Source: Amoebophrya sp. A120
Taxonomy: Eukaryota > Protista > Dinoflagellata
Length of the DNA stretch: 64,000 nt
Reading direction: 5' to 3'
Assembly (NCBI GenBank): GCA_905178155.1
Contig: CAJINV010000017.1
Coordinates: 62,001 to 126,000, forward strand
Made by a program: the position numbers and the translations under genes. Shown here in pieces: positions 3,001 through 56,300 of the stretch; the stretch's first letter is position 1; each line of letters opens with the position of its first letter. The notes under the pieces are model-generated. The model was not told the origin of the DNA. It made no database searches and saw nothing but the letters and a program-made list of their open reading frames with translations.

Positions 3001-3864
3001 GGCGGCGGGGTGTCCGTCCCGCAAGATCTACCGCCGTACCAGAAATATCGCGGGAAAGTGGTGTATCCGGTGAAAAAGGAAGATGAAGTCGGCATCGCGG
3101 CAGATGGCGGAACAATACATCGTCGCCCAAAGCCCGACGACTTACTAGTTGCTCTGATCGAGAAGGGGGCGCACCATCTGGATTTGATGTTTCCGTCGAA
3201 GGGGGATCCGCTGGAAGTAAAATACATCCGGTATGTCGAGCGGAAGTTCATCGAGAAGTGGACGAAACAGCATGTTGAACAGGAGGCGACCGAGCTGCCG
3301 GTTGTGGACAGTGCAAGGATAACAAGAATAAACGAGAAGATTGATAAAAGAGACGCAGGTGGAACAAGCAGCACGAAATCAACAGCAGGCGACGACTACT
3401 TATCAAGCGAAGCGTATGGAGGCGTCAGGTTTGAAATCGTCAGAGTTGGAATAATTTGTAATGCATAAAACGCATGACCCGAGGCACGTGTGTTGCAGAG
3501 CAGGCAAGTGAGGCCGATTGTAAGCCTGTTTGGGGTTACAGCTCGAGCTGCTAAAGTAGCATGAGAAAATCGCTCTGCTTTGCCTAAACAGCATGACAAA
3601 CAGGATTTAGGGACCACCGAGATTTGTCATGCGCCACTTAGAAACTGGGCTCCAACTCGTATCCATTTTATGCATGATAAATTATTTCCTTCGGTCCGCC
3701 TGACTCCACGACCTGGTGGCCGAACCATCTGCGGTGAGGTGCCCTTACAGGTTGTGTAGTGGTTTCGGTCGGTTTAGCATGACAAATTATTTCAACTTTG
3801 TCGATTTCAACTCTGACACATCCATAAAGCGGGTGTCGTGGAGGAGCAGCCCGTCTGGCAGTGA
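47..3864 (+). CDS. Serine peptidase family S28 (prolylcarboxypeptidase/DPP7-like), secreted or lysosomal. Exons 47-1385, 1589-3414, 3832-3864 (stop at 3468 if the terminal element is retained)
   Basis: Motifs QPLDHF, FFYVGNES, AEHRYEGES, QALADYA, GGSYGGMLAAW (catalytic Ser), GNYPFP, SNIIFSNGLLDPW (Asp), GAHHLDL (His). GT-AG intron 1386-1588 joins ORFs 47..1477 and 1690..3468 in frame. Signal-peptide-like N-terminus and long low-complexity insertions. Confidence 0.92.
3415..3826. mobile_element. TIR introner/MITE, TATGGA family, 5-bp direct repeat AAGCG
   Basis: Left end tatggaggcgtcaggtttgaaatcgtcagagttggaataatttgtaatgc matches the reverse complement of right end gcatgacaaattatttcaactttgtcgatttcaactctgacacatccata. 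AAGCG at 3410-3414 and 3827-3831. Homologous to 10939-11244 and 30829-31432. Confidence 0.93.
3689..3776. mobile_element. 88-bp insert inside the introner TIR, flanked by a 17-bp duplication (short copy)
   Basis: gcatgataaattatttc (3672-3688) and gcatgacaaattatttc (3777-3793) flank cttcggtccgcc...ggtcggttta, which is near-identical to the 3' part of 31116-31382. Confidence 0.75.
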
Positions 3865-4654
3865 TCACTGAGCTACAGCTGTTTTGTAGAACAAATGGGC
3901 AGGCGAAATAAGAACATTACAATGCGCGTCCTGTTTGTGTTTGAGCCTTTTTCTTTTATTTTGCAATTTTCTTCTTTATCTTTTGGTTTCCGAACCCGAA
4001 ATCCGTGCGTGTGAGCGGAGACGCAACATGCAGTTCCACATATAAAGACGATATAATGTCGTGAAATGAATCGATATATAAGGTTAAGGTGACACGCAAG
4101 GCCAAGGTGGCAAAGCGAAGCAGCTTGCTCGCTTCCACAGGAAGCGAAGCAGTTCGCTACTTTCACGTAACGAATAAAAAGCTGCCGCTTGTTCTTGTGT
4201 ACCTACTCGAGCATCGCAGACGTGTTGGAAGCCGCTACAGCACCAGCCCCTGCTTGGAAGGTGAAGAGCAGGTAAAGCGTGGCACTTTTCTGATATGCCA
4301 GAGTTGCAAGACCAAGAGTGGAGGAGTCACTTTGAGTAACAGCTGTACTCTGTAACACGTGATAGTTGAGCTTGAGGGGACGAGCGGTGTTTTTTCTGTC
4401 AGGCAGACACAGCAAGCAAGAGAAATCTAAATTCGACGTCCACGTACCTAGTTGTTTCATCTCAGCGCAAGCCCAATCTGGGCGAATCGAACGGCGCAAC
4501 AAAGAATTGATGCCCGCCCGATAACAGACCGCGCGCAGCTCTTCAGCTGCGAAGAAACAGTTCTTTGCTTGCGAGAACGACGGGCAGCACGACAGTTGCA
4601 GCTGCATCGACCTAGCTTGACCGACGTTCTCCTTTGCGTGCATCCGCAACGAAG

Positions 4655-9600: not shown

Positions 9601-11691
9601 CAAAGGGCTGATGCGGAGAAACACCCGGCAAAGCATCGGGGAGCAGAGCGAGGGCGGAACGAGAATCTACACCGCTTTGGACCAGGAACTAGAGAGCGAG
9701 GTAACTGGTCGTCTGGCGATTCTTCTCCTAGCTACGTAATGTAATTTGGTAGTGCCCGCTAGTCTTGTTACCAAGTAGTGAAAATCATGACTTCAGTAGG
9801 TGTAGGTGTAGGTGAGCGATCTCTCAAATTCTGCCACTGGAGAAAAGATGATGTTGCTGATGTCATTCGAGCACATTGACAGTTACATACGAAGACTTAT
9901 TCGGTCTAGGAAATTGCAGCTGTTGATCTCCTTTCTTGCTCATTTATCGGCATCACGATTATGGTCCGCGGTTTCATTGCGAGTACAACCATCAACCCCT
10001 CGCCCAGGTCGCTCGGCTACATCGCGAGATGGAGCGGCAGACGGCCCAGAAATTCAAGCTGGCGGTGACGAACCCGATTCAAGAAAAAATCCACCAACTT
10101 CGGGTAGAGCACGAGAACGACTCCTCCAAGCGCCGGCTCTCCGCGCTGCCAACAACCGGCGGGGGCGGCGCGAGCAGTTCCTCTGCGCACGACAGCGGCA
10201 CCACTACCAACCGAGTGGTGGGCAGACTGACCACCGCGGTTTCGAAGGTTGTTTTGGGGAACAAGTTGCGCCAAAGCTTTGCGGCCCCCTCCCCGGACAG
10301 CGCGTCGGTGGGCATGTTCGACGACAAAGGCCATGCAGAACTCAAGGACTTTTCCGCTCAGCACCAAGCGCAGAAGAAAAAGGAGTTGGGCCGCCGCGCG
10401 AGTCAGGTCAGCAACCACCACGTCGTCTCCCTAAACGCCATGCTGGCCAACCCAAGTTTTGCGAGGAAACAAACTTCTGCGTTGGTCTTTTCAGCGGTCT
10501 ATTGAGTCAATGCCAAGAGGACTGCACAAAGTGAAGAAAGATGTTGCTGCAGCTCATCATCGATCTCTGCTGGAATATACTTGCATGAAATAGCAGGACT
10601 GCACCCGCCACGGACAGCAGCTCACTTTTGGCGGCGTGCGCTCGCGGTAAAGTACTTAGTTGCAGCATATCGAGGACTATTTGTATTTCCGTTTGTTTGA
10701 CAACTCGACGCATCGGCTTTTGTCCTTTCATACGTGTGGCAGTTTGAACATTTGCAATCCAAAGAGCACGGGTAGCGGAAGTGGAGGGGGCGGTGGTAAT
10801 CTTCTTTTTCTCGGGTTTTTGTCGTCCTATGAAGAGTGTAATATGCGAAATCATTTTATGATCTAGCGAAGGTCATCAAGTTGCGAACTGAACGCAAATT
10901 TGTCCTCGCCCTTTTGACTTTACGGACTGCAGATCAATTATGGAAGTGTCAGAATCGAAATTGACAAAATCGAAAAACTTGTAATGCATAAAATCGATAC
11001 GAGTTGGAGCCTCAGTTTCCAAGTGGCGCATGACAAATTTAGGATGCACTAAAATCCGGTCTGTCATGCTGTTTGGGCAAAGAAGACTTCTCCTGTCATG
11101 GTACTCTGGCAGCGCAGCGCCTTCCCCTAAACAGGCTTGCCACCGTTCTCGTTTGCTTGCTCCCCAACACAGGCCATACGTGCTCTACATTTCATGCATT
11201 ACAAATTTTTCGATTTTGTCGATTTCGATCCTGACAGTTCCATATCAATGATCTACTGTCGAGCTGCCCCTACTTCATCTTCTCACATATCACCCAACAT
11301 GCCAGGTCTCGCCGTGAGTTCCGTGTTGAGCGAGCAGCGCATGTTGAAGCAGCAGATTCTTGAGCCGTTGAAGGAAGAGCTGCACGTGATTCGCGAGTTG
11401 GTGGAGGACGTGCTTGTCCAACAAGAAACGATCGAGATGCAGATTCGCGTTTTGGATTCGAACCAAACGCAGCTCCAAATGACCCACAACCAAAGCATGA
11501 AAAAGCTCGAATCGGTCGGCGGGGGAGGAGGTGGTCAAGGTCAACAACAACTCGCAATGGCGCCAAGCAGATCCACCAGAGACGGCGACCAACTCGAGCA
11601 CCTGCAATCGCTGGGCGCTCTCGATTCATCTGCGGTTGGGGACAGCGGGGGACATGTGCCTTTCGGGGGGCCCTTGCTGGAAAGCGACTAA
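6644..11691 (+). CDS. 6-TM ion channel with C-linker and cyclic-nucleotide-binding domain (KCNH/HCN/CNG-like). Exons 6644-6835, 7004-8356, 8549-9700, 10008-~10480, 3' exons uncertain, ending 11691
   Basis: S1 WTAGYTPFFIAF, FWLDSLSLLPL, S4-like FKLLRLWRL, LLGHVLGCFWF, C-linker LPDDLRSRIEKY, CNBD FSPGENVIIQGEIGAEMYWI...FFGEVALLVQTPRLCSVRA, and a C-terminal coiled coil. GT-AG introns 6836-7003, 8357-8548 and 9701-10007 are in phase. Confidence 0.88.
10939..11244. mobile_element. TIR introner/MITE, TATGGA family, 5-bp direct repeat TCAAT, probably inside an intron of the channel gene
   Basis: tatggaagtgtcagaatcgaaattgacaaaatcgaaaaacttgtaatgcat ... atgcattacaaatttttcgattttgtcgatttcgatcctgacagttccata. 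TCAAT at 10934-10938 and 11245-11249. The core is the reverse complement of the 3415-3688 core. Confidence 0.92.
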
Positions 11692-13349
11692 TTGAAAATG
11701 TTTACGCCGCTCCTCCGAGGGAACCGGAATATAGAAATTCGCTGTTGGTCCCGCGAAAAGGCTCTCGCTCTTGCACCGAGGTGGGCGCCTTCAACCGGGA
11801 TGGATGACAAAATGAAATTTTACTACATCTACTTTGCAAAATAAAAAGTCACAGTGTGTTGTGAGTCCGAAGATGTACTAGATGACTAGATGAAAGCTCA
11901 CGATGGACGAGGAGCCGTCGATTACTATGTGAAGGACGAGATCCAACAATATTGAAATTCTAAACTACGCTAGTTCTAATCGACGAGTAAAAGTAGTGAA
12001 AGTGGCAGAGGCAGTGAGTGAATAGATGAATAGCAAAAGCTTGCACTATGGAATGCCGAGGAAGTCGAGGACCTCGCACTTCTCGCAAGGGAACCTGGAG
12101 GACATTCTCCGCGCAAGAGGGACACTTCCTTCAGGTGCGCTTAGGTTCAGCTAAGTAAATCATAAAGAAGTTTAAAGTGATCATCGTCATGGCTAAGGGA
12201 TTTTTTTTCAAGAGTACAAAGCCGGAGGCACATGGTAGTGAAAAACTACCCTGTCTCATCTCACATGCTATTCGACGACGAGGAGCTTTATTTTGTAGAT
12301 AGACATTATTGCTGTACAAAAAAGATCGTAGCGTGCGAATGCGATATGGTCAGTGTCAATGCTACGTTCGAAGGCATCAAAGAACTCGTCATGAAAAGTC
12401 CGTGCGTGGTAGATGACCGCGTAGCAAATAGCAAGCGACATCACCGTTCTGGTCGTTAATGGCGACTTGCGCAACCATCTCTGTTTGAAATTGCAGGACA
12501 GGAACTGGCGTAGCCACGAAACGTGAAAGGATAATACCGCTGCATGTCTGGCAGTGTTTGATGTCGTGATTAACGTTGTAGTACCACCATATTTTTTGAG
12601 GTGAGGTGCCATGCGCCATTAGTGAGATTGGAATTATGATGGAGTCGCAATCAGTAGCACGCTCGGTTTCGTTCTTCGGTTGTGTCGTTCTTTGGAATCG
12701 TGAAAGTCAAAATCTTGTCGTGGCTGATCTCACAAAGAATTTCAGTATACGGTCGTTGCCTCCCTCGTCCTCCAATACCGTGTCGTCTTCGTTTCGTCCG
12801 CTGAGGCAATCCTCTTGACCTGCTAAGTGTAAGCCGTGCATCCGTACCTCCACATTGTGATTGTTTTCGTTTATGATGTCCTCCACGTCGTACGAGACAT
12901 CTCACTCTATTTTGAAGAACCTCTACTGCGTGGAAATGAAGAATCGCAGAATGATGTCCATACTGCAGATGTTGCACCATGCCAGCCATGTAAAAAACAG
13001 CACCATTGACATATCCCCAACCTCCAAGGTTTGTCTAGAATACAACCCCCCGCCGCGTAGTTTGTTTCAAAGAATTCCCCTATTTGATTTGTCCCCGACC
13101 GTCAAGCACGATTTTTTTTATTTTCTCCCACCTGTCGAAGACTGACTCTTTACCCTTATTTTCGTCTAGGTGTAGTAAACTTACATTTTGCAAGAGTTTT
13201 GCCACAGAATCTACGTGTGCCACCATGTTCTCCCGGCTCTCTCTTGTCGATGGTTGAAGATTCCTCGCGGCTGGAGCATCCGTTTTTCCACGAGCTGAAG
13301 AAACTCCTAGCAAATTCTGGTACCGGGCAGAAGCAACTGCGAAGCGGTC

Positions 13350-14852
13350 ATGAGTAGAAGTGGATGTAGACCGGAGACGAGGGCGTCCAACATCAACATG
13401 CTCGTGGCTCGTCGTAGTTTTTTTGCCAGGAAGGTCCTGTCCTTTGATCATGTTCCAGTGAGTTCTACTAACCTCCTGTACCTGTTCCAGTTGGTCACGT
13501 CGTCCATGCTGGTGGGCCTGCTGGGCGATGTTTTTCTGGGAGACATCGTACAGCCGCTGCGAAATAAATTGGAGGGAAATCTCTTTGTGCTTTCGGACGA
13601 CGATGATGTCAAGGACTGGAAGGGTAGTGGACCTTCAAAAACCAGGACTTCGTTAGCTCTGCTTCAACCGACGCACCAAAAAAGTGGCGCCGACGAAGTA
13701 GACCTCGGTGGAAGGGATTGTTCTATAGCGTCCGGCGACAGGAGTTCGAAGAACTGTCGTGGGTCTTTGTTTCGCTCCTCTTTCTTATCGAAAAACCGCA
13801 GCAGAAAAGCCGAGAAGAAGCACAAGAGAAAAAATCACGCGGGGAAGATTATCCTGCCACCCGTTCATCATCAACTTGAAGATTCTTCTGGAGGTACTAG
13901 TAGAGGACGTAGTAGGTTTTTCCTGTTTGCCCAGGCCGTGAACCTGCACCCCCAGATAAAACAGCAGCATTCCTCCCGGAGAACAACGAGCAAGGGGTCT
14001 CTGCTGGAAAAGAAACGGGCCAGGAATCTTAACACAAGGAGAGCACCACGACGAGCAGCGACTGAGACGCTGAGTTCATCGCGGGTCTCCTTCAATGAAC
14101 CCGAAAATGAAGACGAAGTTGCAAAATTTGATGCAACTTCTAATCCGGAGCGGGAGCAGCTTCTGCTCCTTCACCCACCGCGCCGAGCAACCAGTGGCGC
14201 TTTGTCCGGCGAGGACGAGGAGGACTTGGTAGAAAGCATCGGTGACGGTGCGACAAATCTTGAACTACAGAAGAAAGAAGGATCGACGCAAACCAGTAGC
14301 GGAGATCCTTCTACGAGTAAGACGAGGAGGGGAGAAAGGACTAGTTCTTCATCTTCCAGCACCAAAGCCGTTTCTGATCCGGCCAGCACGACGGCGAAAG
14401 CTATGTTGCAAAAAGAAGAGCAGCAGAGAATAAGTTCAAGAAAAATGAAATCCGAAACCACGAGCAAGAAGACATCAACTACTGAGATGAAGGTTGATCA
14501 TTACGACCGGGCAGCACAAAAGAACCAAAACCTTAAAAAGGCTCAGGTTCTCAATTTGCAACAAGAAAATCTCGTTGCGCGCGAAGGAACAGGAAGTCGT
14601 CAAGATATTAATCAACCTGACGATGCAGATTCCGATGCTGAAGCTGACGGTAACGTCGACGAGCCTGCTTCCACGGTCAACCCTTATCCTGTCGAAAAGC
14701 GTCCCACTCCCCTACTCGCGAAACAGATCATGCGTGTGCAACGTTCTTGTGTGCTTTGTGGCAGCATTCTTGCTTTTTTGTGGTTGTGGTCCGTCGTCGA
14801 GGTCCACTGCAAGAGATCAAGGAAGAGCCTCCTGCATGATGCATGTTCTTAG
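13350..14852 (+). CDS. Hypothetical low-complexity protein with an N-terminal hydrophobic segment; probably spliced to downstream exons
   Basis: 500-aa ORF with S/T/K/E-rich composition like other genes here; no recognisable domain. Confidence 0.55.
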   Translation: MSRSGCRPETRASNINMLVARRSFFARKVLSFDHVPVSSTNLLYLFQLVTSSMLVGLLGDVFLGDIVQPLRNKLEGNLFVLSDDDDVKDWKGSGPSKTRTSLALLQPTHQKSGADEVDLGGRDCSIASGDRSSKNCRGSLFRSSFLSKNRSRKAEKKHKRKNHAGKIILPPVHHQLEDSSGGTSRGRSRFFLFAQAVNLHPQIKQQHSSRRTTSKGSLLEKKRARNLNTRRAPRRAATETLSSSRVSFNEPENEDEVAKFDATSNPEREQLLLLHPPRRATSGALSGEDEEDLVESIGDGATNLELQKKEGSTQTSSGDPSTSKTRRGERTSSSSSSTKAVSDPASTTAKAMLQKEEQQRISSRKMKSETTSKKTSTTEMKVDHYDRAAQKNQNLKKAQVLNLQQENLVAREGTGSRQDINQPDDADSDAEADGNVDEPASTVNPYPVEKRPTPLLAKQIMRVQRSCVLCGSILAFLWLWSVVEVHCKRSRKSLLHDACS

Positions 14853-15119
14853 CAACAAGAATTTGTGATGGTGCGCCCCTCAACATCATGATGAGAACTC
14901 GGATCTATCATGGATCATCATTTGACGGCACTTTTAGCCACCGACTTTACATAACATAGTTTGTTGCACCCGCGCAGCCGAAAATTATTAGGATGTCGGT
15001 GTGCCAGAACCCGCACCATGAATGATTATTTTAATTTTTCGATTTGCAGCTACTTCTGTATAGCAAACGATTTCAAATGGTAAAGCTAGAGTTGGGTAGT
15101 TGAGGACTTTTTCGCACAG

Positions 15120-16057
15120 GATAACCCGCTCGCGCAGTTCATCGCGGAAGATACAACGGCAGACGAAGCGATGAAAGCGGCAGACGAGAAAATCGCAGAA
15201 ATCAAACAAGCAGCGGCTGAGGCCACCGCCGCACCCGGGACTGACGATGACTATCCAAATGAAGTAAATGGCCATGAATCTCTATGTTGAGTCCTCTCCT
15301 ACACGAAAACGAAATATATGCAAGACATAATTCCGCTGATGAGTTTTATATCTGATACAGCTTGCACTTGTAGAATAAATATGAAATGATCGAGTGGATA
15401 TCCAACTTAATCCCAGCTTGTACGGTACTCCGCGAATCGTGTGGTGTAGCGGGGACCCTTTAGGAGTTCTGCGTTCGAGCTTGACAAGCATTGCAATTGC
15501 AAAGAAAAAAATCATGACTCACGAAACTACATTTTTTTTTTGGTTCGTGGGAAGGGTTCAACATCAACACAGAAATGGTCATTTTTTGCTTGGATACATG
15601 ACCGGCCGGAATTTTTTCAGATCCGAAAGTACTGACAATCGTGGCGGGCGGCGGCATCGCGGTTGTGGTTTTGCTGATTGTCCTTCTCTTTTCCTGCATG
15701 GGTAGGGGAAGCAATGCTCCACAGGTTGGCGTAGCAAGCGCGGCAGCCGGGAGTGGAGTTATCCAGAGTCCCGGGAGCACAGGCAGCAATGGCGACGCCC
15801 TTGCCCTCTCGGTACAAGCACACCAGTATCCCGCGAAGCCCAAAGCAAAGGCGAAGGCACATAGTAGCAAACCGAAGTCAAAAACCACAAAGGTGGCAGC
15901 AAAACCGAAGAGCGCTAGCCACGCGAAGCCAAAAAGTGCCGGTACTGCTAGTGCCGACCACGCAAAACCAAAAAGCGGCGACGCCGAGGCTGCAGAAAAA
16001 CCCAAAACCTTCGCAGAAAAGGCCGCGGCGAAGAAGGCACATCCGAAGTCGAAGTGA
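15120..16057 (+). CDS. Probable 3' exons (about 15120-15263 and 15621-16057) of a membrane protein with a TM helix and AKPKS-rich tail; likely the same gene as 13350
   Basis: Acceptors cacag|gataac and ttcag|atccg. Peptides DNPLAQFIAEDTTADEAMKAADEKIAEIKQ and PKVLTIVAGGGIAVVVLLIVLLF followed by KPKS repeats. Exact phase linkage is unresolved. Confidence 0.45.
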
Positions 16058-17053: not shown

Positions 17054-20000
17054 ATGTTGATGTTTATTTTGTTCTACATGAAGGCGAACGCGAAGCAAGA
17101 CCTTCTCTCCAGGCGGTTGACTCACCTCCAGCAAACTGATCGTATGAAATCAGTACCAAAAATGTCGCTAATATCCGGCTCATCAGTTGTATCAGACTCT
17201 GCGTCATCTGCCGCCTCTTCGTCATCTTCGACGAACCTGCTACCAGCAAAAAAACCGCCCTGCTCCGATTGCACAACAAGAACTTCCGTTTCTCTTGGCG
17301 CAGATCAACAGCACGTCCGGGTCGCGCGCATCTCCAGTCACGTGCTACCATTTCCACATGCGGAACAGCCGCAGAAGCAGTCTGTCTCCAGTCTTAGGGC
17401 GAATCACTGCTCCGCCTCCTCGTCCAATGTTCTTGCTGCAAAGTCAATCACCATCTCCGACTTTTCCAATGTCGGAGATCCGGGAATGTTGTCGGGCTCA
17501 AAAAAGGTGGCGCTGCAAAATTTCGTGAACGGTGAGTGGGCGACAGCGACTAGTACTTCGAGTAAAAACAACTGTAAGAAGTACATTCCGATCCTCGATC
17601 CCTTAAATGGCGAGGAGTTCATCCACATGCCGGATACCGGAGCCGATTCCACAAGTGAACTGGCACCCTTTCTGGAGAAGATGCGCACTGTCCCGAAGTC
17701 CGGGTTACACAACCCTCTGAACAACGTGGACCGCTACACCCTGTACGGCGAGGTCTCCTTTCAATTGGCAAAATGCCTGGACGACCCGGCGATTTCAGAC
17801 CACTTTACGCGGCTGATCCAGCGTGTGGTGCCGAAGAGCTACGCCCAGGCTTATGGGGAAGTCAAAATCGTGGCGAAGTTCCTGCAAAATTTCGGGGCAG
17901 ACCAAGTCCGGTTCTTAGCAAGGGGGTTCACGGTATGATGTAGATAGTTGTTCAAGCACTGATGTGATCGTCATCGTTTTCGTTTCATCGATCATTACTT
18001 CGTCGCTCTGCCATGTTTGGTGCTGGCGGAAGTGCAATAGCTCTAAGACACATGCTAGGTTAGCTTTCGTGAAACTTCTTTTGTGCTGTATGCGAGAAAT
18101 TAGGAATAAAAAAATGAAAACCCCATAAATCATAGGTCTCCGGCGACCACGACGGTCAGCAGTCGCAGGGGTACCGCTTCCCCTACGGCGCGGTGATGAT
18201 TATCGCGCCCTTCAATTTTCCGCTCGAGATCCCGGTTTTGCAGCTGATGGGCGCGTTGTACATGGGCAACCACGTGACCATCAAGGGCTCGGAGAAGTGC
18301 TCCATCGTGTTGGAAGAGTGGCTCCGGCTGATGTTGAAGTGCGGCATGCCGAAAAACGACGTGAACCTGCTCCACGGCACCGGGGTCGGCACCAGCCAAC
18401 TCGTGAAAGCCGCCGCGTCGTCCAAGATTCTCCGCTGCATGCAGTTCACCGGCAGCAACAAGATCGCACGAGAGCTGCTCGCCGTCACGGAGGGTAAGGT
18501 CAAGATCGAGGACGCGGGGTTCAACTGGAAGGTGTTCGGGCCGGACGTCGATGTGGTATCCACAGTAAATGATCTGGCTGTTATACAGGAATCTCAACGA
18601 GTAAATCTCAATACTATGCACGGCCTTATGCTAAAACACGAAGGAAATCTTGCGAAGTCTCTCATGTTAAAAACGAGTAAATCTCAACGGTTGCGCCCCA
18701 ACGCTTTGAGACGCCTCAACGGATTCGCGATGAGCTCAACGACTGGTCTCAACGGTCTGCGCGCAGAAGAACTGCGTGGCGTGAAGGTGCGCATCAAGCC
18801 CCTGCAACAAACCTCTCAGTGGTCCTGCCAACACGAGTGCCGGCGAGCGGGCTCCTAGGTAGTTTTAGAAAAACGCGCGAAGGCTGCGCGCATAGTAAGA
18901 CACAGGGCACACAAGCCAACGGACCGCGCACAACGGGCCGCGCAACAAAAGCGCAGGAGAGCGAAAAGAGAGTCTTCGGGCAGGGCAGCCGCCGCCGCCG
19001 GCCGGCGGCGGCTGCCCTGCCCGACGACCCTAGACCCCAAATCCTAAACCCGACACCCTAAACCGCTGCTGGTCGTTGAGATATATTTCTCAACGTTGAG
19101 CTGTGAGGTCTCAACGTTGAGATCCACAAGCACCGTTGAGATACCTGTAGTACAACCAAATGATCTCCTGTACACGTACAAATGTGGCTTCTGCATGACA
19201 AAACTGGGCTTCTGTCCTAGTTTAGCATGACAATTCTTACAACACTCCAAATTGGTGAAGCTTGTCATGCATTTTGTACATGTACGGGAAATCGAAATTT
19301 ACGTTGCATATGTGGCCCTGGTGGACTACATCGCCTGGATGTGCGATCAGGACGCCTACGCGAACTGCGGCCAAAAATGGTATGCATCGCATAAAAACGC
19401 ATCGTAAAAACTTCAATAACCGTGGGTGTGACTTTACTTGCAGCTACAGCTGCGGAACTGACAATCGACCACAACGCGACACGACCGAGAAATTTATCTA
19501 CTCAAACTGGTGACCCGAAACGGCAGTACAAATGAGCATTGCGACGTCTTCTGGCCTGAAAAAGCAAGTCAGATTCGCATAAAGCTGCTGACACGTCAAT
19601 TTATTCGATCGTTTTGTTTTGCAATGCATAACTGCTCAGCCACGTCCATCCTGATTCTGCACAAAAACTGGAGTGACTGCGACTTGGTGGGGAAGATGAA
19701 AAAAATTGCCAGCGAGCGCACACTGGAAAAGCTCACAGTGACACCGGTAAGTGGCGAAACTAGTGCACGTGATTGTTTTTTTCAGCCCGCGACTACAAAT
19801 TGCTAGAGTTGATGTTTCCGTTGATTCTACGTGGTTTTGGAACAAGGCTACGCAGCCCCGCGCTACGTGGTTGCCACTCAACCAGGTAGATGTGAATACA
19901 TTCACGAGGTAAAACTAGAAGATGAAACTTCTACACAACTACAGGTCCTGACACAAACCACGGAGCAGATGCTTTCCCACCTGGCGAAGTTGCAGCAGAT

Positions 20001-20705
20001 ACCAGGCGCAAAACTGCTTTTTGGCGGGAAGGAACTGAGAAACCACAAAATTCCGAAGTGCTATGGGGCCATAGAACCGACCGCGGTGTTTGTGCCGTTG
20101 AGGGAAATTCTGAAAGACGAGGAGACGGTGAAGCTGGTCACTACCGAGATCTTCGGCCCGTTTCAAGTCGTGACCGAGTACGGGAATGATACGGAATTGG
20201 AAGACTGTGTTTTTCCCTTACTCGAGAAGATGGAGAACCACCTGACCGCCTGCGTTTGCTCCAATGACGTCAAGTTTCAGAACAAGGTATCCGACAGAAA
20301 AGCTGACATCGTGTCGACCCCTAGCAAAAATCCAAAACCAAATCAGATTGATTTTGTAAATTCAAAAGTGCGTAAGCGTAATTTCACTGAAGAAGAAGAA
20401 GAACGTGTGGCGAAGTTGTGGTTGATCGCACGGTAATACGCGGTACAGATCGACGGTCGTCGTGCGAGTGATTTTCTGTCGCATACCAAGTTCTGGGCAA
20501 AACCGTGAACGGCACCACGTATTGCGGGCACCGCGGGCGCACCACCGGCGCGCCCCAAAACCACTGGTTCGGACCCTCGAGCGATCCGCGGGCGGCGGGC
20601 ATCGGCTCGCCGGAAGCCATAAAATTGGTGTGGAGCGCCCACCGGGAGATAATCCACGATGTGGGACCGGTGGCCGCGGATTGGAAGAGACCGGCGCCTA
20701 CCTGA
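17054..20705 (+). CDS. ALDH12A1: Delta-1-pyrroline-5-carboxylate dehydrogenase, ALDH12 (plant/alveolate) type. Exons ~17054-17932, 18136-18555, 19315-19379, 19635-19746, 19945-20286, 20490-20705
   Basis: VPKSGLHNPL, PKSYAQAYGEV, DQVRFLARGF, PFNFPLEIPVLQLMGALYMGN, FTGS, KIEDAGFNWKVFGPDV, DYIAWMCDQDAYANCGQKCSA, TTEIFGPFQVVTEY, VNGTTYCG.RGRTTGAPQNHWFGP. Two GT-AG introns plus three TIR elements must be removed. Start codon uncertain. Confidence 0.95.
18576..19157. mobile_element. Nested non-autonomous DNA transposon (GG...CC ends, 9-bp TSD, Mutator-like geometry)
   Basis: TSD aaatgatct at 18567-18575 and 19158-19166. TIR ggctgttatacaggaatctcaacg / cgttgagatacctgtagtacaacc. Multiple subterminal ctcaacg (left) and cgttgag (right) motifs. 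Confidence 0.85.
18976..19064. repeat. 22-bp perfect GC-rich hairpin (18976-19024) followed by degenerate CCCTAAA telomere-like repeats
   Basis: tcgggcagggcagccgccgccg-ccggc-cggcggcggctgccctgcccga, then ccctaga ccccaaa tcctaaa cccgaca ccctaaa. Confidence 0.75.
19381..19630. mobile_element. Degenerate TIR introner interrupting the catalytic Cys codon of P5CDH
   Basis: tatgcatcgcataaaaacg ... cgttttgttttgcaatgcata. Imperfect direct repeat aatgg/actgc. No AG at the 3' junction. Removing 255 nt restores GQKCSATSIL. Confidence 0.85.
20288..20485. mobile_element. Degenerate TIR introner in the P5CDH CDS
   Basis: tatccgacagaaaa ... ttttctgtcgcata. Flanks caagg/ccaag. Removing 203 nt restores FQNKVLGKTVNGTTY. 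Confidence 0.85.
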
Positions 20706-29771: not shown

Positions 29772-30003
29772 AAATGCTAATTCCGACATAGAGCGACGAA
29801 GTTAAAGCAGCAAAAGAGAAATGGAAGTTTCATCGCTGACGTGACCAATTAACAACAGCATCCGCCGCCTCTCCAATTTCTTTTCCAACAAAAAAAGATT
29901 CCATCAGGTGACCTCCGTTGGCTCGGGGAGGTAAAGTACCAAGCGGTAAGCCCGATCGGTGACCGCGACCGCGACGATCGCGATCTGGACGTGAGGTACG
30001 GCA

Positions 30004-33334: not shown

Positions 33335-35716
33335 ATGGGAGCCTGTGGCGGCAAAGCCGAGGGCATGACGGCCGACCAGAAGGCGGCGGTCGAGACCGTG
33401 CAAACCATGTTTGGCATGTGGGGCCAGGGTAAGTTTGCCACCGCCCAGGGTGAAGCTGACTTCATCAAGGTAAGTACTTACTTTGACAATTGTAATGCTG
33501 CGGTAGCTGCTGCTGCTCAGTGATCTGATGTCGATGTGAATAGTTCCAAAGAATTTCAGCTGCGAACGTGGTCCAGCAAAGCAAAAGAGATGGCTGTGGT
33601 GCTAGTTTTGAATTACAGCACATTCATTTTGTTCGCACCAATTCGACATAAATTTAAATCAGTCCATGGAAACCATCAACACCCCGGATGCTACCTGGGA
33701 TTTCACCGGACCCGGACCCGAGATTTACAAGACGTACACGGGAGCCAAGGCATTCATGCCTTGGATGAAGTACCTGGAAGAGGTACTATTTTCGAAACGG
33801 TGGTTTAGATTACGAAAAAGAATTTTATTTGTGCTGGTGTGTGCTGGTGAAGCGTTGACGTTCATCTTCATAAAACCGCAAAAAAATAACAGTTCGACTT
33901 CCCGAACATGAACCCGAGCTTCTTCCCCGGTCCCCCGGGCTCCAACATCGCCATCATGTACATGAACTATGACATGACGCACAAGGAGTCCAAGGCGGCC
34001 ATGACCAAACAAACCGACGTTTTCGTGTTCACCGTAAAGGGCGGCAAAATCGCCAGCGCCAAGCAGTACTGGGGCGATGTGCAAGGGATTAACAAGGTAA
34101 AATTTCTCAATTATTGCATGAAGTCATTGTCTTTCTCCCTGCGCGCATCCATTTAGATGCCTTTTAAAGGTTTACGTCAATACGGATTGCACAAAGGCGT
34201 CGGTCACCGAATGCTAATCCTAATCTTCTTTGGGCAATGCAGCAGCGGCCGGAGAATAAGCTGAGAAGGTATAGAAGTAGGTGAGAAGTTAAAGTGTCAA
34301 AAACTCACCACAGACCCTGGGGCCGGTGCACAACTACACTGGTGGTACCCCGGACCAGGCGGCTGCCATGAAGACCGTTCTGACCGCGTTCGGCATGTGG
34401 GGCGAGGGCAAGTTCAAGGCCAGCCAGAGTGACGAAGACTACAAGAAAAACTTGGGTTCCATCTGGTGCGCGGACCACGTGCTGGACGTCCGCGGCCCGG
34501 CGTCGCCGTTCCACAAGGTATTTAAGAGATGAGGCTTTCCTGCTGGTCAGTCATGCGCATTGTACTGTCAAGAACACCTTAAGGCTCTGCAGATTTAAAA
34601 ACATGTGTTCGAGCGCCATCAAGCGATGCACATTGGCCGTAGTCCACGACAACTTCGCACGACCTGAATTGCTAAAAAATCCTTAACCAGGAATACAAGT
34701 CCGGCGGTGACATTTCCGGCACCAAGGACTGGATCAAACTATCAAATGCAAAAATGTCTGTGTCTGGAAGGATGCAAGTTTGTCATGCTTGTCTGGCATG
34801 ACTCGAGAATCTGTGTTGCATAGGCGCGAAAAGGCCCTCTAGCCTGTCATGCAAAAACGCAGTTTGCCATGCGGAATACGTAAGACATGGCAGCCAAAAA
34901 AATTGTCTTGCGTGGCTGCGTATTGCAGTGCGTCTACCACTCACTTTTAGCATTACAAGTTTCCAGACCCAGACATTTTTACATTTGATACAAGCTGTTG
35001 GACGCCCACGAGTTCACCCGCATGGTGCCGACCTTCACCCCCGGCCCCGCGGGTTCGAACATATGCATGGCAAAAGTATCGCATTCGTATTGCACTCATA
35101 CATTACAAATATTTTTCGTAGGGTAAATCAGCATTACAAAATTATATTTCTCATGCTGGGGAAATTTGTAATGCGTTTTCATTTATACGAGTGCGATACT
35201 TTTCCAATTCATAGAACAAGGTGTACTGCAACATGGAGTACGACATCAAGTACAAGGGCGCGGAGGTGAAGGACTATCAAATGTAAAAATGTCTGGGTCT
35301 GGAAGAATGCAACTTGTCATGCTAAATCTGAAGCATGCAAAAATCTGTGCTGTGTGATTACCAAAAGTCGGCCAGTTTTGACCGAGTCGGGGGGCAGTTT
35401 CTCATGCAGGATAGGCATGAGAAAGATCGCACAGAATCTGTCATGCTAGGTCCTGCATTTAAGACCTCATGGGTCATGGAAAAGCTGCATGACAAATCGC
35501 GCATCTGTTTAGCATGTGTGTCGCAGTCGCACTTCTGTTTAGCATGACAAATCGCGCATTCTTCCAGACCCAGACATTTTTGCACTTGATAAGGACATGG
35601 TCGACACCATGGTGTTCACCGTCAAGGACGGCAAGGTCTACTCCCTGAAGCAGTACTGGGGTGACCCAGTCAAGGTCACCGAGGCCTTCGGCGAGCTCTG
35701 GGAGATGCCTGCGTAA
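33335..35716 (+). CDS. Protein with two tandem SnoaL/NTF2-like domains and an N-terminal MGACG acylation motif. Exons 33335-33469, 33663-33782, 33893-34096, 34314-34517, 34691-34739, 34996-35061, 35219-35274, 35597-35716
   Basis: Repeat 1 ...MFGMWGQGKF...PGPPGSN...VFVFTVKGGKIASAKQYWGD aligns with repeat 2 ...AFGMWGEGKF...PGPAGSN...TMVFTVKDGKVYSLKQYWGD. Four GT-AG introns and three TIR elements. The fold assignment is from pattern recognition only. Confidence 0.8.
34740..34990. mobile_element. TIR introner, TATCAA family, direct repeat caaac/caagc
   Basis: tatcaaatgcaaaaatgtctgtgtctggaa ... ttccagacccagacatttttacatttgata. Removal restores KDWIKLLDAH. Confidence 0.93.
35062..35213. mobile_element. 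TIR introner, direct repeat GAACA
   Basis: tatgcatggcaaaagtatcgcattcgtat ... atacgagtgcgatacttttccaattcata. GAACA at 35057-35061 and 35214-35218. Removal restores PAGSNKVYC. Confidence 0.93.
35275..35591. mobile_element. TIR introner, TATCAA family, direct repeat AGGAC
   Basis: tatcaaatgtaaaaatgtctgggtctggaagaatgc ... gcattcttccagacccagacatttttgcacttgata. AGGAC at 35270-35274 and 35592-35596. Removal restores AEVKDMVDTM. Confidence 0.94.
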
Positions 35717-47105: not shown

Positions 47106-49646
47106 ATGTTCACCGCAACAGCTGCTACCGCGAGCTGCAGCTCGACTGCGCGCTGCTGGTTACGGCACGGCGCCGAGGCCACTGCGAGATACAACCGACG
47201 CAGCCCCCCGCACCAGCAACTCCAACTTGTAAAGATGCTCCAGGCCGCCACACCAAGTGCCTACAGGAGATCGAAGATTTATTCCAGACGAAGCACCACT
47301 CGATGTTTCTCGTCCGCGTCTGACGTGCCGATAGTCCCGATGATCATCAACGGGGAAAAGATCATCTCCAAAACGGAAAAGTTCTTTGACGTGCACAACC
47401 CTGCCACCGGGGAGCTGATCGCCAAAACGCCTTTGTGTCTCCCCTCCGAAATGGAGGAAGCGGTGGCTGGGTGCAAGGAGGCGTTCAAATTTTGGAAGAA
47501 GGTCGCGCCGAGCAGCCGTGCCCGTGTGATGCACAAGTTCGAGGCGAAAATACGGGAAAACACGGAGGAGTTGGCACAACTCATCACCAAGGAACAGGGG
47601 AAGACCATTGCGGATGCAAATGGTGAAATTGAATGTCGAAATTCATGAATTAGAATTTCCATATTAAGATATCTCATCTGTGTGTTCGTCCGCATCCATG
47701 TGGGACGACCTTGCAGAAGCGCAACATATCAACAAAAAGAATCTACTTACGACCAAAAAACACGCAGGCGACATCTTCCGCGGTCTCGAAGTTGTCGAAA
47801 TGGCCTGCGCTCTCCCCTCCTGGCTGCAGGGCGAGTCTCTGCAGAACATCGCGGACGGCGTGGATTGCCATTCCTACCGAACGCCGTTGGGCGTCACCGC
47901 CGGGATCGCGCCGTTTAACTTCCCGGCGATGATTCCTCTATGGATGTTCCCCTTTTCCGCCGGTTGCGGGAACACCATGTTGATGAAACCGTCGGAACGA
48001 GTGCCGTTGTCCTATTCAGAGGAAAAATCCCCCCTCCCCATATCAAAACGAAGTTTCTGATGCTGGATTTGCGTACACAAATCAGATTTGTCTTGCTGGA
48101 GAGGACGGCAGGCTTATACTAAGCCCGAACTGGGAGGCTTTGATCTAGGCACTGAGCATGGCAAACGTGTAGTCTCTAGGGCCAACAGCATCACAAACCG
48201 CCAACAGCGTGCGGCAGAGCCTGCGCGGTTGCGTCCTTGCAAGACAGAGACGATTTGAGGTCACAAATCAGCATGACAAATTTTCTGGGGCGTGCCTTTT
48301 CGATATGGGGAGGGGGGATTTTTCCTTACGATATGTCCACCATCCGCCTCATGGAGCTCGCGAAGGAATCCGGCCTGCCGGATGGGGTCTGCAACGTGAT
48401 CCACGGCACCTTTGACGCGGTAAACTTCATCTGCGACCACGAAGACATCAGGGCGATCTCCTTTGTGGGCGGGAATTCCGCCGGGGAGCACATCTACGAA
48501 CGGGCGGCCAAAACCGGAAAGCGCGCGCAGTGCAACATGGGCGCGAAGAACCACTGCATTGTGCTTCCGGACGCGGACCCGGACACGGTGGTGAACGCTT
48601 TAGCCGGGGCTTCTTGCGGCGCCGCCGGGCAGCGGTGCATGGCGATCTCCGTGGCGATCTTCGTCGGCAGCGCGAAGGAAATGATCCCGAGGATCGCAGA
48701 AGCGGCATCGACGCTGAAAGTGGGGAGAGGTACTACCAAAGGAGGGCGTTTGATGGCAAGTTTGTAATATTTGTTTTGCTGAAATGATAGATTTTTTGGA
48801 AGTAGATAGTGACGGCACTCAAAGCAAATGCACTGAGCCTTCACCTTCTGAAGATGCCTAACCTGCTAAATAAATCCGTCCTCCAGGTACCGAGCCCGGC
48901 GTGTCTATCGGTCCTCTGATTTCCAAGGAGGCCAAGTCCCGCGTTGAAACCGCAATCCAGTCGGGAATTGACCAGGGCGCCGAGCTTCTGATCGACGGCC
49001 GGAATCCTACCCTTTCGGACGCGAGTCTCCAGAACGGATATTTTGTGGGTTCCTCGGTGTTCAGCAAAGTCACAGCCGACATGGACATCTACCAGAAAGA
49101 GATTTTCGGGCCGGTGCTCAGCTGCATGGAAGTGGAGACGTTTGATGACGCTTTGCAAATTTCGAACAATAACCCCTACGGAAACGGGTGCGCGGTGTTC
49201 ACGCAGTCCGGGTTCAATGCCAGGAAGTATGTGGATGAGGTACTGAGCGTACTAGTACTGATTGTGATGAAGGGCTTTATTCGTCGTGTCTTGTCACTTC
49301 ATGTTGCGTCTTTACATTTGAGTGGGCACGGCTTATGAAGTAGCAGCACCGGTGATCGCGATTCAGCATGAGACGAAATTTTTTTTGCAAGACAAGATCC
49401 CGATCGCAAAAAATCCTTGACCCCCCACAGATTGAAGCGGGCCAGGTAGGTGTGAACCTGCCCATTCCAGTTCCGCTTCCCATGTTTTCCTTCACGGGGA
49501 ATAAGAAGTCCATCCGTGGGGACCTGAATTTCTACGGGAAGGCCGGCATGCAGTTCTTTACACAATGGAAGACCGTGACGAGCAATTGGCGGCAGACAAA
49601 GAGCAGCGAGCAAAAGGTGCAAGCGAGCATGCCGATCATGAAGTAG
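47106..49646 (+). CDS. ALDH6A1: Methylmalonate-semialdehyde dehydrogenase (acylating), mitochondrial. Exons 47106-47622, 47768-48012, 48339-48729, 48887-49239, 49431-49646
   Basis: [107 protein letters not shown]. Confidence 0.97.
48013..48333. mobile_element. TIR introner in the ALDH6 CDS, direct repeat TGTCC
   Basis: tattcagaggaaaaatcccccctccccatatcaaaa ... ttttcgatatggggaggggggatttttccttacgata. TGTCC at 48008-48012 and 48334-48338. Removal restores [17 protein letters not shown]. No GT-AG pair at the ends. Confidence 0.95.
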
Positions 49647-53300: not shown

Positions 53301-56300
53301 GAAAGCGGCGAAGATCGTATTTCGGTGGACCGAAATTTTAAGGGAAGGCAGCAAATCGAAATTCCGGCCTTCTCCAGCCTAGATTTCCTTGCCTCACTCT
53401 TCCGCCTCCCGGAACTCGCGGACCGAGGGGAATTGAGCCAGTGGCCGCCGGTGCACTACCCGGCAGAGGTGGAGGGTGTTACTATCGAAAATTGCGATGG
53501 CACTTGTTCCTCGTCGAGAGGGAAAAGCTACAGACCCACCCCGAGCCCGTCGATCAACAGCAACATGCTGTGTTTCTACGACCAAATGGTGCGGTTGGCG
53601 TGCGGGCCGGTAAATGGTGCGAAATTGCTCGACCACTACGACGAGCAGGAGGATGCACGAGCAATGCCCTGTGCGGCACATCGACATCATAGCAGGCTGC
53701 TCAAGCAGCAGATGGTGGTGAATTTAGGAAAGCTGTATCCAAGAAAAAACACCCATCCCCATCCAATTTGTCATGCAGAACATGCATAAAATCCGCTATA
53801 TGTCATGTAAAAAATGGATGGGGATGGGTGTTTTTTTCTCGATAAGCTGCTAGGAATTTTGGAAGCAGACAGGAATAAAACTACGTCAACTACTTTACTT
53901 ACGCCAGGAAATAGTAGAACAGTAACAGCAGGTCAAGAAGGGCAACGCAACTACAAAATCGATGCCGCGAGACAAAAGCTTTTGCAGTTTATCGACCAAG
54001 AAACAGTGGCAATTCATCTAGGGAGCTGCGCTGATCTCCATTCCAAGCAGAATGACGCGTCGAAGAGCGTGCCGGAACAAGAACAAACTGTCCCTCTCCT
54101 ACGCAGCAGCTCGAGCAGCTCCGCGAGGACATGTTCTTCACAACTAACAAGTGTGAACAACCTCCGACAGCTGTTTTGGGACAAATATCGCATCTTCCTT
54201 CTACCGGACCCCGCGTCCCGATTGCGCTGCAAAGATCGAGGACCACCAGCGCCTGCTCCAGGTCTTTCTGCAGCGGCAATGGAGAACAACAACAAAGAGA
54301 GCGTCGATATTCAAGGCGGTAGAAACAAAAAACCCAACCCGAAGAGCAAAAAGAAGAAGGATAAGGCAAAAACAAGTGACAGCAAGAACGCAACATGCTC
54401 GACGTCACGACCCGTGATCCAGCCAGGAGTAGAAAGTGAACAAGCAAAGCCGCGTGGTGATGAAACTTCAACTTCTGTGGATTTTCATCCCGAGTGCGAG
54501 TTGCGAAGGGTTGCGCAGAGTGTTAAGGCGATTCGTGGTTTAATTGAGAACAGTATCGCCCTGGCGGACGCCAGACAACAGGTGGACGATGCGATGGCGA
54601 TGCAGGAAATTGAAGACGATTCTTCAGGAGAGGATAGTAGCGTGATATCCGTCGCTGTCCGCTCAGAGCCATGCGCCGTGGTGAAGAACATTGCTGATAC
54701 AACAGAACAACAAAATAACTCTCGCCGTGCTTCATCGCCTAAACGTTCCAACCTTTCATCTGGTTCGACCGACAAGAATGCCGCTATCTGCAGCAGTATT
54801 GTGCGTGAGCAGGAGATCCCGGTGCCTCTCCTCGCAGATGAAGGTTTGCAAGCTGCAGGGAAAGAACAAGTGGTTCGTGGCGTACTAGCAGAGAAAGAGA
54901 CTGTCAACATGAACGTCGAAGACCCGCCAAATAACGTGACAGCAGCTATTTGTGTCGATGATCTCACCGCACCAGACCACGCGGACCAGCAGCAAAATGT
55001 TGATGCCCCACAGCTGTTGATTGGACAAGAACAGCTTGACGAAGCTGAGGATCAGCATGATGTCGAATCGCGTGATGTTGAAAACCAGGCACTACATCAA
55101 GGTGGGCAACAACTAACCGCGACTCTGAGTGTAACTTCCTATCCCTACGACCCGGAAAATCCGCCGCGGTCCGAGTCGGAGGAGGACGGGATCGACGAAA
55201 ACCAGAACAATCCGCCGTGGTGCGACGAAATTAAGCAGTGCCGACCGGTCATTTTTGGAATTCGGGAAGAGGAGGAGGAGGACATTGACGAAGAAGATGA
55301 CTCCTTCGAAGAAGTAGACTTGATGAACGAGAGCATCCTGAACTACTTGCCTGGCAATTTGGACGACCAGCACGAAGGACTATTTTTACCAACCCAACCC
55401 CTGCACCCAAACGCCGTGTTCCTCAGCACTACCGCGAGAGCGTCCGCCGGGGCGGGGGGTTGGATTGATTTCGAAGTCCTCGATGAGCAGATGAACTCTC
55501 GTGGTGCAACTTCTGAGATGGCGCCAACATCGTCGCAGGGGAACTACCGAGCAGCGGAAAAACTGGCGGCGCCACATCACGGGGAGAGGGCACGACCAGC
55601 ACACGAGAAGTTATACCACTCGACTTTGCCGAACGTGCACGATGGAAAACAAGTACCGGGAGGTGAAACAAGCATTGTTGATGCATTCGACAGTCGTTGT
55701 ACTGTGGACCAGCGAACCTTTCCCGAAAAAGAAACCAGATCACCTGGTGCACGATCAGTTGTTCAATCAGATTTATCGTTAGCAGAACGTGGAAGCTTCT
55801 TGAGTCCGAAGCCGAGCACAACTTCCGCTCCTCGACCAGACCCTCAGCCCTCACTTGCGCAGGTGCTCCAGACGAAAATTCTAGCGCCAGTACGGGAGCG
55901 ATATTGCTGCACGACCACGGCAGTAAATCTTCACAACATGGACGACGACCACGGGGGACCAAAGGAAGCCGAAGACGCAAAGCTGCAGCGGATTTCGGTG
56001 GAAGCGGAAATTGGCAAGATTTTGTCAAATCTCGAAGCCTTAACCGAACAGGAAAAGTTTGTGGAGTTGTACCAAACACCTACGGCAGACGAAGTTCTCG
56101 ATCAGCAGGCGATGAGCACAACTAGAAGAGCAGCTACTTACAGGAACCACGAACAGGAGTTGAAGACCTTGGTTCGGAGGCAGGGCGAGGAGATGGCGGA
56201 TGTGCTACGAAGAAATCAGGCGGCGATGTCTTCTTCTTCTTCTTCTCGAAGAAATAAGAGCGGAACAACAAGCGGAGCAAATGCTTCTACAACTTTTGCA

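What the first reader, a model, noticed from the sequence alone, without database searches (positions are those of the whole stretch)
3410..53849. Window-wide system of TAT...ATA hairpin elements that must be removed precisely from coding sequence without GT-AG ends
Seen: 11 elements (3415, 10939, 18557, 19381, 20288, 30829, 34740, 35062, 35275, 48013, 53736) from several unrelated TIR families. All start TAT, end ATA and have a 5-bp direct repeat; 8 show TAT-N7-AAA at one or both ends. Ten lie in CDS. In ALDH6, ALDH12, NOT1 and the SnoaL-like gene, removing the element plus exactly one repeat restores the frame or conserved motifs, and no exact-removal register gives GT-AG. Knowledge: IR/DR non-canonical 'introners' have, to my recollection, been reported from Amoebophrya genomes, so the class is not new, but its excision mechanism and mobilising enzyme are unresolved as far as I know. 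Inference: ends are defined by the TAT/ATA stem rather than by U1/U2AF-type signals. Removal could be structure-guided RNA splicing or, less likely, IES-like DNA excision. No transposase is present in this window.
Basis: partly seen in the sequence, partly recalled or inferred. Interest (0 to 1): 0.85.

Follow-up and report, generated by a model that had tools for sequence, protein, structure and literature searches.

The report
Hairpin introns cut by fixed ruler
These are the already described transposon-like introns of the marine parasite Amoebophrya A120, which are missing from its spliced transcripts although they lack the usual GT-AG ends; the new detail is that the cuts likely fall at a fixed place, 1 base before and 4 bases after the hairpin ends, which gives a precise target for finding the unknown splicing machinery.

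Summary
The elements are real and the class is known. The window is Amoebophrya sp. A120 (two proteins 100% identical), and Farhat et al. 2021 describe these TAT-N7-AAA inverted-/direct-repeat introners. All 11 claimed elements exist; 8 have a perfect 5-bp repeat and 3 a decayed one. Four more were missed. Transcript contigs skip six elements, always element + 5 nt, even where the repeat has decayed. Only one register fits all six: N-TAT…ATA-NNNN (chance 0.02–0.04). That paper calls the border variable or unknown. DNA contigs keep the elements, so IES-like excision is unlikely. In 200 oriented copies from another public assembly the target duplication is strictly 5 bp, with no excess of GT or AG. 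The TIR families are probably not unrelated: a subterminal GCAT[GTC]ACAA motif is in 233 of 245 copies. It is absent from five spliced, decayed elements, so it is likely a mobility signal, not a branch site. Best guess: MITE-like insertions removed by a modified spliceosome (canonical donors here all start GTA); a separate nuclease-ligase is the main rival. No transposase was found.

The parts
3415..3826 (+). TAT…ATA element, family A (TATGG…TCAG), perfect repeat AAGCG; at the 3' end of an S28 peptidase ORF; predicted intron 3414-3830
   Evidence: no reads laid here, removal unverified
10458..10732 (+).
   Evidence: loose end at 10736 in 4 of 4 runs equals window 10426-10455; allowed offsets -2..0; open frame
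10939..11244 (+). Family A element, perfect repeat TCAAT, lying inside a canonical GT-AG intron (10796-11305)
   Evidence: joint 10794->11305 in 4 of 4 runs
14685..15123 (+).
   Evidence: joint 14678->15123 in X3, X4, X6; offsets -6..-1
15252..15596 (+). Pins the -1/+4 register
   Evidence: joint 15250->15601, both=0, in X3, X4, X6
18557..19310 (+). Element in the ALDH12-like gene, repeat TGTGG; 759 nt (754+5) skipped; intron 18556-19314
   Evidence: joint 18550->19310 in 4 of 4 runs
18576..19157 (.). Nested 582-bp TIR insertion with a 9-bp duplication (AAATGATCT) that breaks the left arm of element 18557; the host element is 163 nt without it
19381..19630 (+). Element in the ALDH12-like gene; repeat AATGG/ACTGC; 255 nt skipped, restoring GQKCSA; intron 19380-19634
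   Evidence: joint 19377->19633 in 4 of 4 runs; offsets -3..-1; 680-aa ORF
20288..20485 (+). Element in the ALDH12-like gene; repeat CAAGG/CCAAG; 203 nt skipped; intron 20287-20489
   Evidence: joint 20286->20490 in 4 of 4 runs; offsets -1..+1
30157..30344 (+).
   Evidence: offsets worked out by hand from the mapped ends
30829..31432 (+). Family A element, perfect repeat CATTC; skipped (604+5) in annotated protein P0001
34740..34990 (+). Family B element in the SnoaL-like gene; repeat CAAAC/CAAGC
   Evidence: P0002 maps across it; co-linear with two homologues
35062..35213 (+). Element in the SnoaL-like gene; perfect repeat GAACA
35275..35591 (+). Family B element in the SnoaL-like gene; perfect repeat AGGAC
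   Evidence: X5 contig piece begins at 35591 and the record runs on elsewhere
48013..48333 (+). Element in the ALDH6-like gene; perfect repeat TGTCC
   Evidence: Aldedh profile 81-168 ends and 167-303 resumes at its ends
53736..53844 (+). Element in NOT1; perfect repeat AGCTG; removal joins a 1,116-codon and a 3,383-codon frame (4,499 open codons to the window end)

Best explanation
These are short, non-coding, MITE-like insertions with 5-bp target duplications that are absent from the spliced transcripts, likely cut 1 nt before the terminal TAT and 4 nt after the terminal ATA, probably by a modified U2-type spliceosome. Shown: the elements are in the DNA; six are skipped in transcript contigs, always as element + 5 nt; neither the repeat nor GT/AG is required. 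Inferred: 1 + 4 equals the duplication length, so any new insertion is removed without a scar. The 5' cut would read N-U-A-U, the local GUA(U) donor with a free first base, which could pair with the U6 ACAGA box without U1. The 3' cut would be measured 4 nt from the ATA that pairs with, or is bridged to, the TAT. Inferred: spread is by one DDE transposase acting in trans on TAT ends and the shared GCAT[GTC]ACAA subterminal sites; an integrase-like (Ginger2/Tdd-type) enzyme is the likeliest candidate. Odds: removal at RNA level about 0.95; fixed -1/+4 register about 0.75; spliceosome as catalyst about 0.55.
For:: five joints plus one loose end skip element + 5 nt; contig X5-11 skips two GT-AG introns and three elements, so these contigs are spliced RNA; offset -1 is the only one common to all six (P 0.038 for 6 registers, 0.016 for 8); 15252 fixes it alone; annotated protein allows -1 or 0 at 30157; all 9 top A120 boundary pairs in Farhat Table S4 have T at +2, and all 9 top A25 pairs start TT; 236 of 361 TAT…ATA pairs have an exact 5-bp repeat (0 with 6, 4 with 4); in 200 oriented copies +1 G is 58 vs 61.5 expected, 3' AG 21 vs 17.6, GT-AG 6 vs 4.7, and 57 of 64 possible end pairs occur.: +5 is the best frame-keeping removal in 184 of 245; four copies interrupt RPB1 coding sequence in locus L063; 14 of 14 canonical donors read start GTA. 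A120 keeps U2, U4, U5, U6 and nearly all spliceosomal proteins, with U1 snRNA not found. U6 ACAGA pairs with U+4 and U+2 of a GUAUGU donor; motif in 233 of 245 copies from all 8 rough arm groups, mostly 31-43 nt from an end; 25 hits in 4,921 bp of window elements vs 2 in 59,079 bp outside; none in the five decayed spliced elements or 30157.
Against: No lariat, circle or branch point was observed, and no branch motif was found. Known spliceosomes use the first and last intron bases (established knowledge), and here these are free. The register rests on six junctions from at most 2 samples of 1 study, and the decisive one (15252) comes from one sample; these runs may be the data behind the annotation. 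A DNA-only test of the register (GC-to-AT polarity of repeat mismatches, 50-61 elements) was not significant (p 0.10-0.61), and position 3 leaned the wrong way, 7 to 2. The 5' and 3' arms show no asymmetry in young copies. The spliced 10458 element has TTT, so A+3 is not essential. Single changes in TAT/ATA occur in 14 further copies, several in coding-like context. Annotated A120 families show AT donors at 14-20% against 31% predicted by this register. In-register end pairing is predicted near 0 for 18557 and 30157. No transposase was found.
Confidence: 0.55

Rival explanations
1. A separate structure-guided nuclease and ligase (Euglena-type non-conventional splicing, or an RtcB-type ligation) recognises the closed TAT/ATA stem and cuts with a 1-nt 5' and 4-nt 3' overhang, independently of the spliceosome.
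For: End dinucleotides are completely free. Arms are symmetric, and positions 11-13 pair in 95-97% of 250 copies. Euglena introns follow an analogous offset code, N3CDG…CH'GN5-6, and are released as circles. No branch motif was found.
Against: Spliced 18557 and 30157 have almost no predicted in-register terminal pairing, and 19381 about 0.35. The 5' cut puts UA(U) exactly at +2..+4, matching the 14 of 14 GTA canonical donors. U1 snRNA is missing even though 35% of introns are GT-AG, so the spliceosome is already unusual.
Confidence: 0.33
2. Removal is at RNA level but the cut slides anywhere within the duplicated 5 bp (variable border, as Farhat et al. drew it); the common -1 offset is coincidence.
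For: Farhat Fig. 3 legend calls the sites variable. Only six junctions were tested. The DNA polarity test was inconclusive.
Against: Where the repeat has decayed, each contig shows one product, and all fit -1 (P 0.016-0.038). T at +2 in all 18 top pairs of Table S4.
Confidence: 0.2
3. IES-like precise excision from DNA at one life stage.
For: TA-rich inverted ends and exact restoration resemble ciliate IESs (recalled). DNA and RNA runs came from different samples, and 330 joint rows were not shown.
Against: DNA contigs of run X1 run from unique flank into the element ends at single-copy depth (35567-48041, 48306-53764, 34250-34768, 35147-35297; depth 32-46). Transcript contigs also carry element ends joined to other flanks. 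10939 leaves as part of an ordinary intron. An organism with one kind of nucleus would lose the elements for good (inference).
Confidence: 0.03
4. The genes are pseudogenes or use cryptic GT-AG sites.
For: 3415 was not covered by reads and its retention would only change a short C-terminus.
Against: Exact skips in transcripts; intact ALDH12-like, NOT1, SnoaL-like and RPB1 frames.
Confidence: 0.01

Closest known systems
Introner elements (IEs) / non-canonical introns of Amoebophrya sp. A120 (Farhat et al. 2021, PMC7789003; read: abstract, sections 10-12, 16, 25, 34, 36, supplement legends and rows of Tables S4, S6, S7; figures not held)
   Same: Same organism (P0001, P0002 100% identical). Same TAT + 7 + AAA inverted repeat, 3-5-nt direct repeats (5 bp in Fig. 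S19), RNA-seq-supported removal, no internal transposase; 29,850 copies reported.
   Different: The paper calls the border variable or unknown and finds no family relation. Here one fixed -1/+4 register, a strict 5-bp duplication, independence from the repeat and a shared subterminal motif are found. Its logos could not be seen and may already show part of this.
A120 introner families of Gozashti et al. 2025 (PMC12130899; passages, 19 of 58 A120 rows of supplementary file 8; files 13-14 not searched)
   Same: Mostly 'TIR DNA, unknown superfamily' with mixed ends; family 38 carries integrase-like homology between TIRs.
   Different: Automated TSD calls range 2-5 bp; no boundary rule in the rows seen; link of family 38 to these TAT elements not tested.
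Euglenid non-conventional introns (PMC12501133, PMC11282704; passages) and hemistasiid diplonemid introns (PMC12621601; passages)
   Same: No GT-AG, paired ends at fixed offsets from the cuts, direct repeats that make borders slidable, probable MITE origin.
   Different: Offsets 3 and 5-6 with CDG/CH'G against 1 and 4 with TAT/ATA; euglenid introns are released as circles, unknown here; unrelated lineage.
Micromonas/Aureococcus introners and Fritillaria non-canonical introns (as reviewed in PMC11282704, passages; PMC13326754, listing and one find)
   Same: Transposon-born introns with TIR and TSD, removed by a spliceosome.
   Different: They carry or co-opt specific end dinucleotides; here no base is preferred at +1, -2 or -1.
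Ginger2/Tdd DNA transposons (PMC2836005; passages)
   Same: TIRs; TDD-4 and TDD-5 make 5-bp TSDs; termini TGT, one transition from TAT.
   Different: Termini TGTNR, not TAT; no transposase found here; Gozashti et al. report no homology of A120 family 38 to known Gingers.

Membership tests
Amoebophrya A120 introner elements | Occurs in A120 | tested here: met
   P0001 and P0002 100% identical to window exons
Amoebophrya A120 introner elements | Terminal inverted repeat starting TAT, with AAA after 7 nt | tested here: met
   TAT in 14 of 15 window elements; AAA in 8 of the 11 claimed and 222 of 245 related copies; family A lacks AAA
Amoebophrya A120 introner elements | 3-5-nt direct repeat at the borders | tested here: met
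   5 bp exact in 8 of 15 window elements, decayed in 7; 236 of 361 in related loci
Amoebophrya A120 introner elements | Removed from RNA with non-canonical ends | tested here: met
   six junctions
Amoebophrya A120 introner elements | Repeated in the genome | tested here: met
   families A and B each recur in the window; summed DNA depth at element ends far above single copy
MITE / non-autonomous TIR transposon | Short, TIRs, fixed-length TSD, no coding capacity | tested here: met
   median 262 bp, range 109-972; longest stop-free stretch 85-151 aa in six long candidates
MITE / non-autonomous TIR transposon | A cognate autonomous element with transposase | not testable with these tools
   no genome held; no transposase domain in 56 + 62 + 4 proteins scanned
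U2-type spliceosomal intron | GT/GC…AG ends | tested here: not met
U2-type spliceosomal intron | Branch point and lariat intermediate | not testable with these tools
   only contigs were available for this strain; the one shared internal motif is absent from spliced elements
Euglenid non-conventional intron | N3CDG…CH'GN5-6 signature | tested here: not met
   ends are N-TAT…ATA-N4
Euglenid non-conventional intron | Release as full-length circle | not testable with these tools
   needs RNase R-treated RNA reads
Ginger2/Tdd transposon | TGTNR termini | tested here: not met
   TAT in 209 of 223 end pairs counted, TGT/ACA variants in 2
Ginger2/Tdd transposon | Gypsy-integrase-like transposase | not testable with these tools
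   no autonomous copy found
Ciliate-type IES | Element-free alleles in somatic DNA | tested here: inconclusive
   DNA contigs of one run keep the elements at single-copy depth; rare or stage-specific alleles not excluded

The most novel reading that the evidence does not exclude
Amoebophrya A120 has a second splicing code with no information in the end dinucleotides: N-TAT…ATA-NNNN, a ruler whose offsets (1 + 4) add up to the 5-bp duplication of its transposon, so any insertion is scarless. A U1-less spliceosome, or a new enzyme, reads it, and one still unidentified integrase-like transposase spread all TIR families through a shared GCAT[GTC]ACAA site.
Probability: 0.5. Interest if true: 0.75.

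Novelty: already known. Interest (0 to 1): 0.45.

Why it matters
The class is published, but its borders were reported as unknown and its removal is an open question. A fixed register would let some 30,000 A120 introns be re-annotated and would tell experimenters which ends to look for in lariat or circle sequencing. It would also show that a eukaryote can splice with no constraint on the first and last intron bases. Offsets that sum to the target duplication would explain how a transposon can enter essential genes such as RPB1 and NOT1 without harm. The same arithmetic may apply to Euglena (3 + 5 or 6); that is speculation.

Tried and rejected
No whole genome is held, so no genome-wide search for autonomous elements or snRNAs was possible. 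Raw RNA runs X9 and X10 gave only 11 and 3 reads (another strain) and show nothing on these junctions. The joint table was filled by repeat-derived DNA contigs (15 rows shown, 330 not). No listed holder was on record as RNA; X3-X6 are treated as RNA because they skip GT-AG introns. Candidate 36446-36666 (perfect repeat, 12/20 arm) is read through by an X5 contig and was rejected. GCAT[GTC]ACAA as branch site was rejected. The GC/AT polarity test of the register was inconclusive. An A at -7 shared with canonical introns was seen in only 8 of 13 counted by eye and was dropped. The family A TIR pattern found nothing in viral contigs. Rfam: 0 matches. L047 holds a lone TIR-like match with no element. 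The relation of loci L001-L148 to A120 is unsettled: no overlap outside elements, best RPB1 hit 86% with no A120-labelled hit among the 120 listed. Earlier scan notes on this genome: none. Searches listed no later paper that fixes the A120 border; subscription papers and the figures of PMC7789003 could not be seen.
Full report
Observation. All 11 claimed elements are present at the stated starts and end in ATA. Eight have a perfect 5-bp direct repeat and three a decayed one (19381, 20288, 34740). Seven pairs with a perfect repeat and at least 14/20 arm matches compare with a mean of 0 in 30 Markov controls. TAT-N7-AAA occurs in 8 of 11, and no exact-removal register gives GT-AG in the 13 elements tested. 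Gene identities hold: two aldehyde dehydrogenases, NOT1 and a SnoaL-like protein. Four more elements turned up: 10458, 14685, 15252 and 30157, making 15.

Identity. Two exon queries return NCBI proteins of Amoebophrya sp. A120 at 100%. Farhat et al. 2021 (PMC7789003; sections 10-12, 16, 25, 34, 36 and supplement text read, figures not held) describe this class in that strain: inverted repeats starting TAT, seven looser bases, then AAA; 3-5-nt direct repeats; RNA-seq support; 29,850 copies; U1 snRNA not found; no A120 transposase found. The class and its motif are therefore known. Their Fig. [quoted passage not shown]

Removal is at RNA level. Four contig sets (2 samples, 1 study; RNA status is the tool's guess) laid on 10600-21100 skip 444, 350, 759, 255 and 203 nt at five elements, each element + 5. 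A loose end in all four runs gives a sixth skip of 280 = 275 + 5 at 10458. One contig skips two GT-AG introns and three elements together, so these are spliced transcripts. The joints give a 680-aa ALDH12-like frame with GQKCSA restored. Element 10939 leaves as part of an ordinary GT-AG intron. Annotated proteins skip 30157, 30829, 34740, 35062 and 35275; the SnoaL-like protein aligns without gaps at those junctions to two homologues. Removing 53736 opens 4,499 codons of NOT1. DNA contigs of run X1 run from unique flank into the element ends at single-copy depth. Rare empty sites are not excluded, because contigs drop them and 330 joint rows were hidden.

The register. Where the repeat has decayed, the transcript shows which copy was kept. 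Allowed intron starts relative to TAT are -2..0, -6..-1, exactly -1, -6..0, -3..-1 and -1..+1; only -1 is common. With independent random registers a common offset arises in 1,776 of 46,656 cases (0.038), or 0.016 with eight registers. The annotated protein at 30157 allows -1 or 0. All nine top A120 boundary pairs in Farhat Table S4 have T at +2, and all nine for A25 start TT, though aligner bias may contribute. The intron is thus most likely N-TAT…ATA-NNNN. Against this: the sample is small; the decisive joint is from one sample; a DNA-only polarity test was not significant, and position 3 leaned the wrong way; annotated families show fewer AT donors than predicted.

Population view. One family B pattern retrieved 148 loci (472 kb), nearly all from one other public assembly whose relation to A120 is unsettled. 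Of 361 TAT…ATA pairs, 236 have an exact 5-bp repeat, 4 an exact 4-bp and none a 6-bp repeat. A coding model trained on the window oriented 12 of 12 window candidates correctly and 250 of 306 copies in the loci. In the 200 with perfect repeats, G at +1 (58 vs 61.5), AG at the end (21 vs 17.6) and GT-AG (6 vs 4.7) are at chance, and 57 of 64 end pairs occur. The ends therefore carry no dinucleotide information, unlike Micromonas-type introners. Four copies interrupt RPB1 coding sequence. Pairing is best kept at arm positions 11-13 and loose at 4-7. Fourteen copies have a single change in TAT or ATA, several in coding-like context but unverified by RNA.

One mobility signal. GCAT[GTC]ACAA occurs 25 times in 4,921 bp of window elements and twice in the other 59,079 bp. 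It is in 233 of 245 related copies across all eight rough arm groups, mostly 31-43 nt from an end. It is missing from the five decayed elements seen spliced in RNA and from 30157, so it is not needed for splicing. It most likely marks transposase-binding sites (inference), which makes the TIR families clients of one enzyme. A 5-bp duplication with T-R-T ends resembles Ginger2/Tdd and integrase-type elements, and Gozashti et al. report an A120 TIR family with integrase-like homology. No transposase domain was found in the proteins scanned.

Mechanism. In the -1/+4 register the 5' end reads N-U-A-U. All 14 canonical donors examined start GTA, and U6 ACAGA pairs with U+2 and U+4 of GUAUGU-type donors. 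A120 keeps the rest of the spliceosome, and a U1-less spliceosome has precedent in Cyanidioschyzon (search listing). I therefore favour a modified spliceosome (0.55) whose 3' cut is measured 4 nt from ATA. The main rival (0.33) is a separate nuclease-ligase, as suspected for Euglena, whose introns follow a similar offset code and leave as circles. It is favoured by the free end bases and the missing branch motif. It is weakened by spliced elements with little predicted end pairing, including 18557, whose left arm is broken by a nested 582-bp insertion. DNA excision (0.03) and pseudogenes (0.01) are disfavoured.

Verdict. A real and already described system. The fixed register, the independence from the repeat and from GT/AG, and the shared subterminal motif were not found in the text read or listed; the unseen figures of PMC7789003 may show part of it. 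Interest 0.45; 0.75 if the ruler rule holds genome-wide.

Noticed in passing
window 18576-19157: A different TIR element (GG…CC ends, 582 bp, 9-bp duplication, Mutator-like by that length, label recalled) is nested in element 18557; it has a long internal palindrome and CCCTAAA-like repeats.
   Followed up: partly
window canonical introns (10796, 17934, 19748, 29731, 33470, 33783, 34097, 34518): All donors start GTA, and the 3' ends are A-rich with no polypyrimidine tract, so ordinary 3' site recognition may also be unusual here.
   Followed up: partly
loci L001-L148: Insertion phase is biased: 95, 54 and 51 of 200 copies, the excess being phase 0 in the -1/+4 register (chi-square p 1e-4). Could be target preference or selection.
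   Followed up: partly
window 15252-15596 and 20288-20485: Both show the pattern XXXX-n-TAT…ATA-C-XXXX, a repeat shifted by one base on the right, where the ruler pushes the last repeat base into the exon; it may be a recurring insertion or repair product.
   Followed up: no
L060 68-228: A copy ending AAA instead of ATA lies in a Rab-like GTPase frame (motif recognised by eye); if spliced, ATA is not strictly needed.
   Followed up: no
window 35275 (runs X9, X10): Raw RNA reads of another strain carry a related family B end joined to a different flank (7 reads), so the family is not confined to this strain.
   Followed up: no
window 53850-63998: One stop-free frame of 3,383 codons (NOT1) runs off the window end.
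   Followed up: partly
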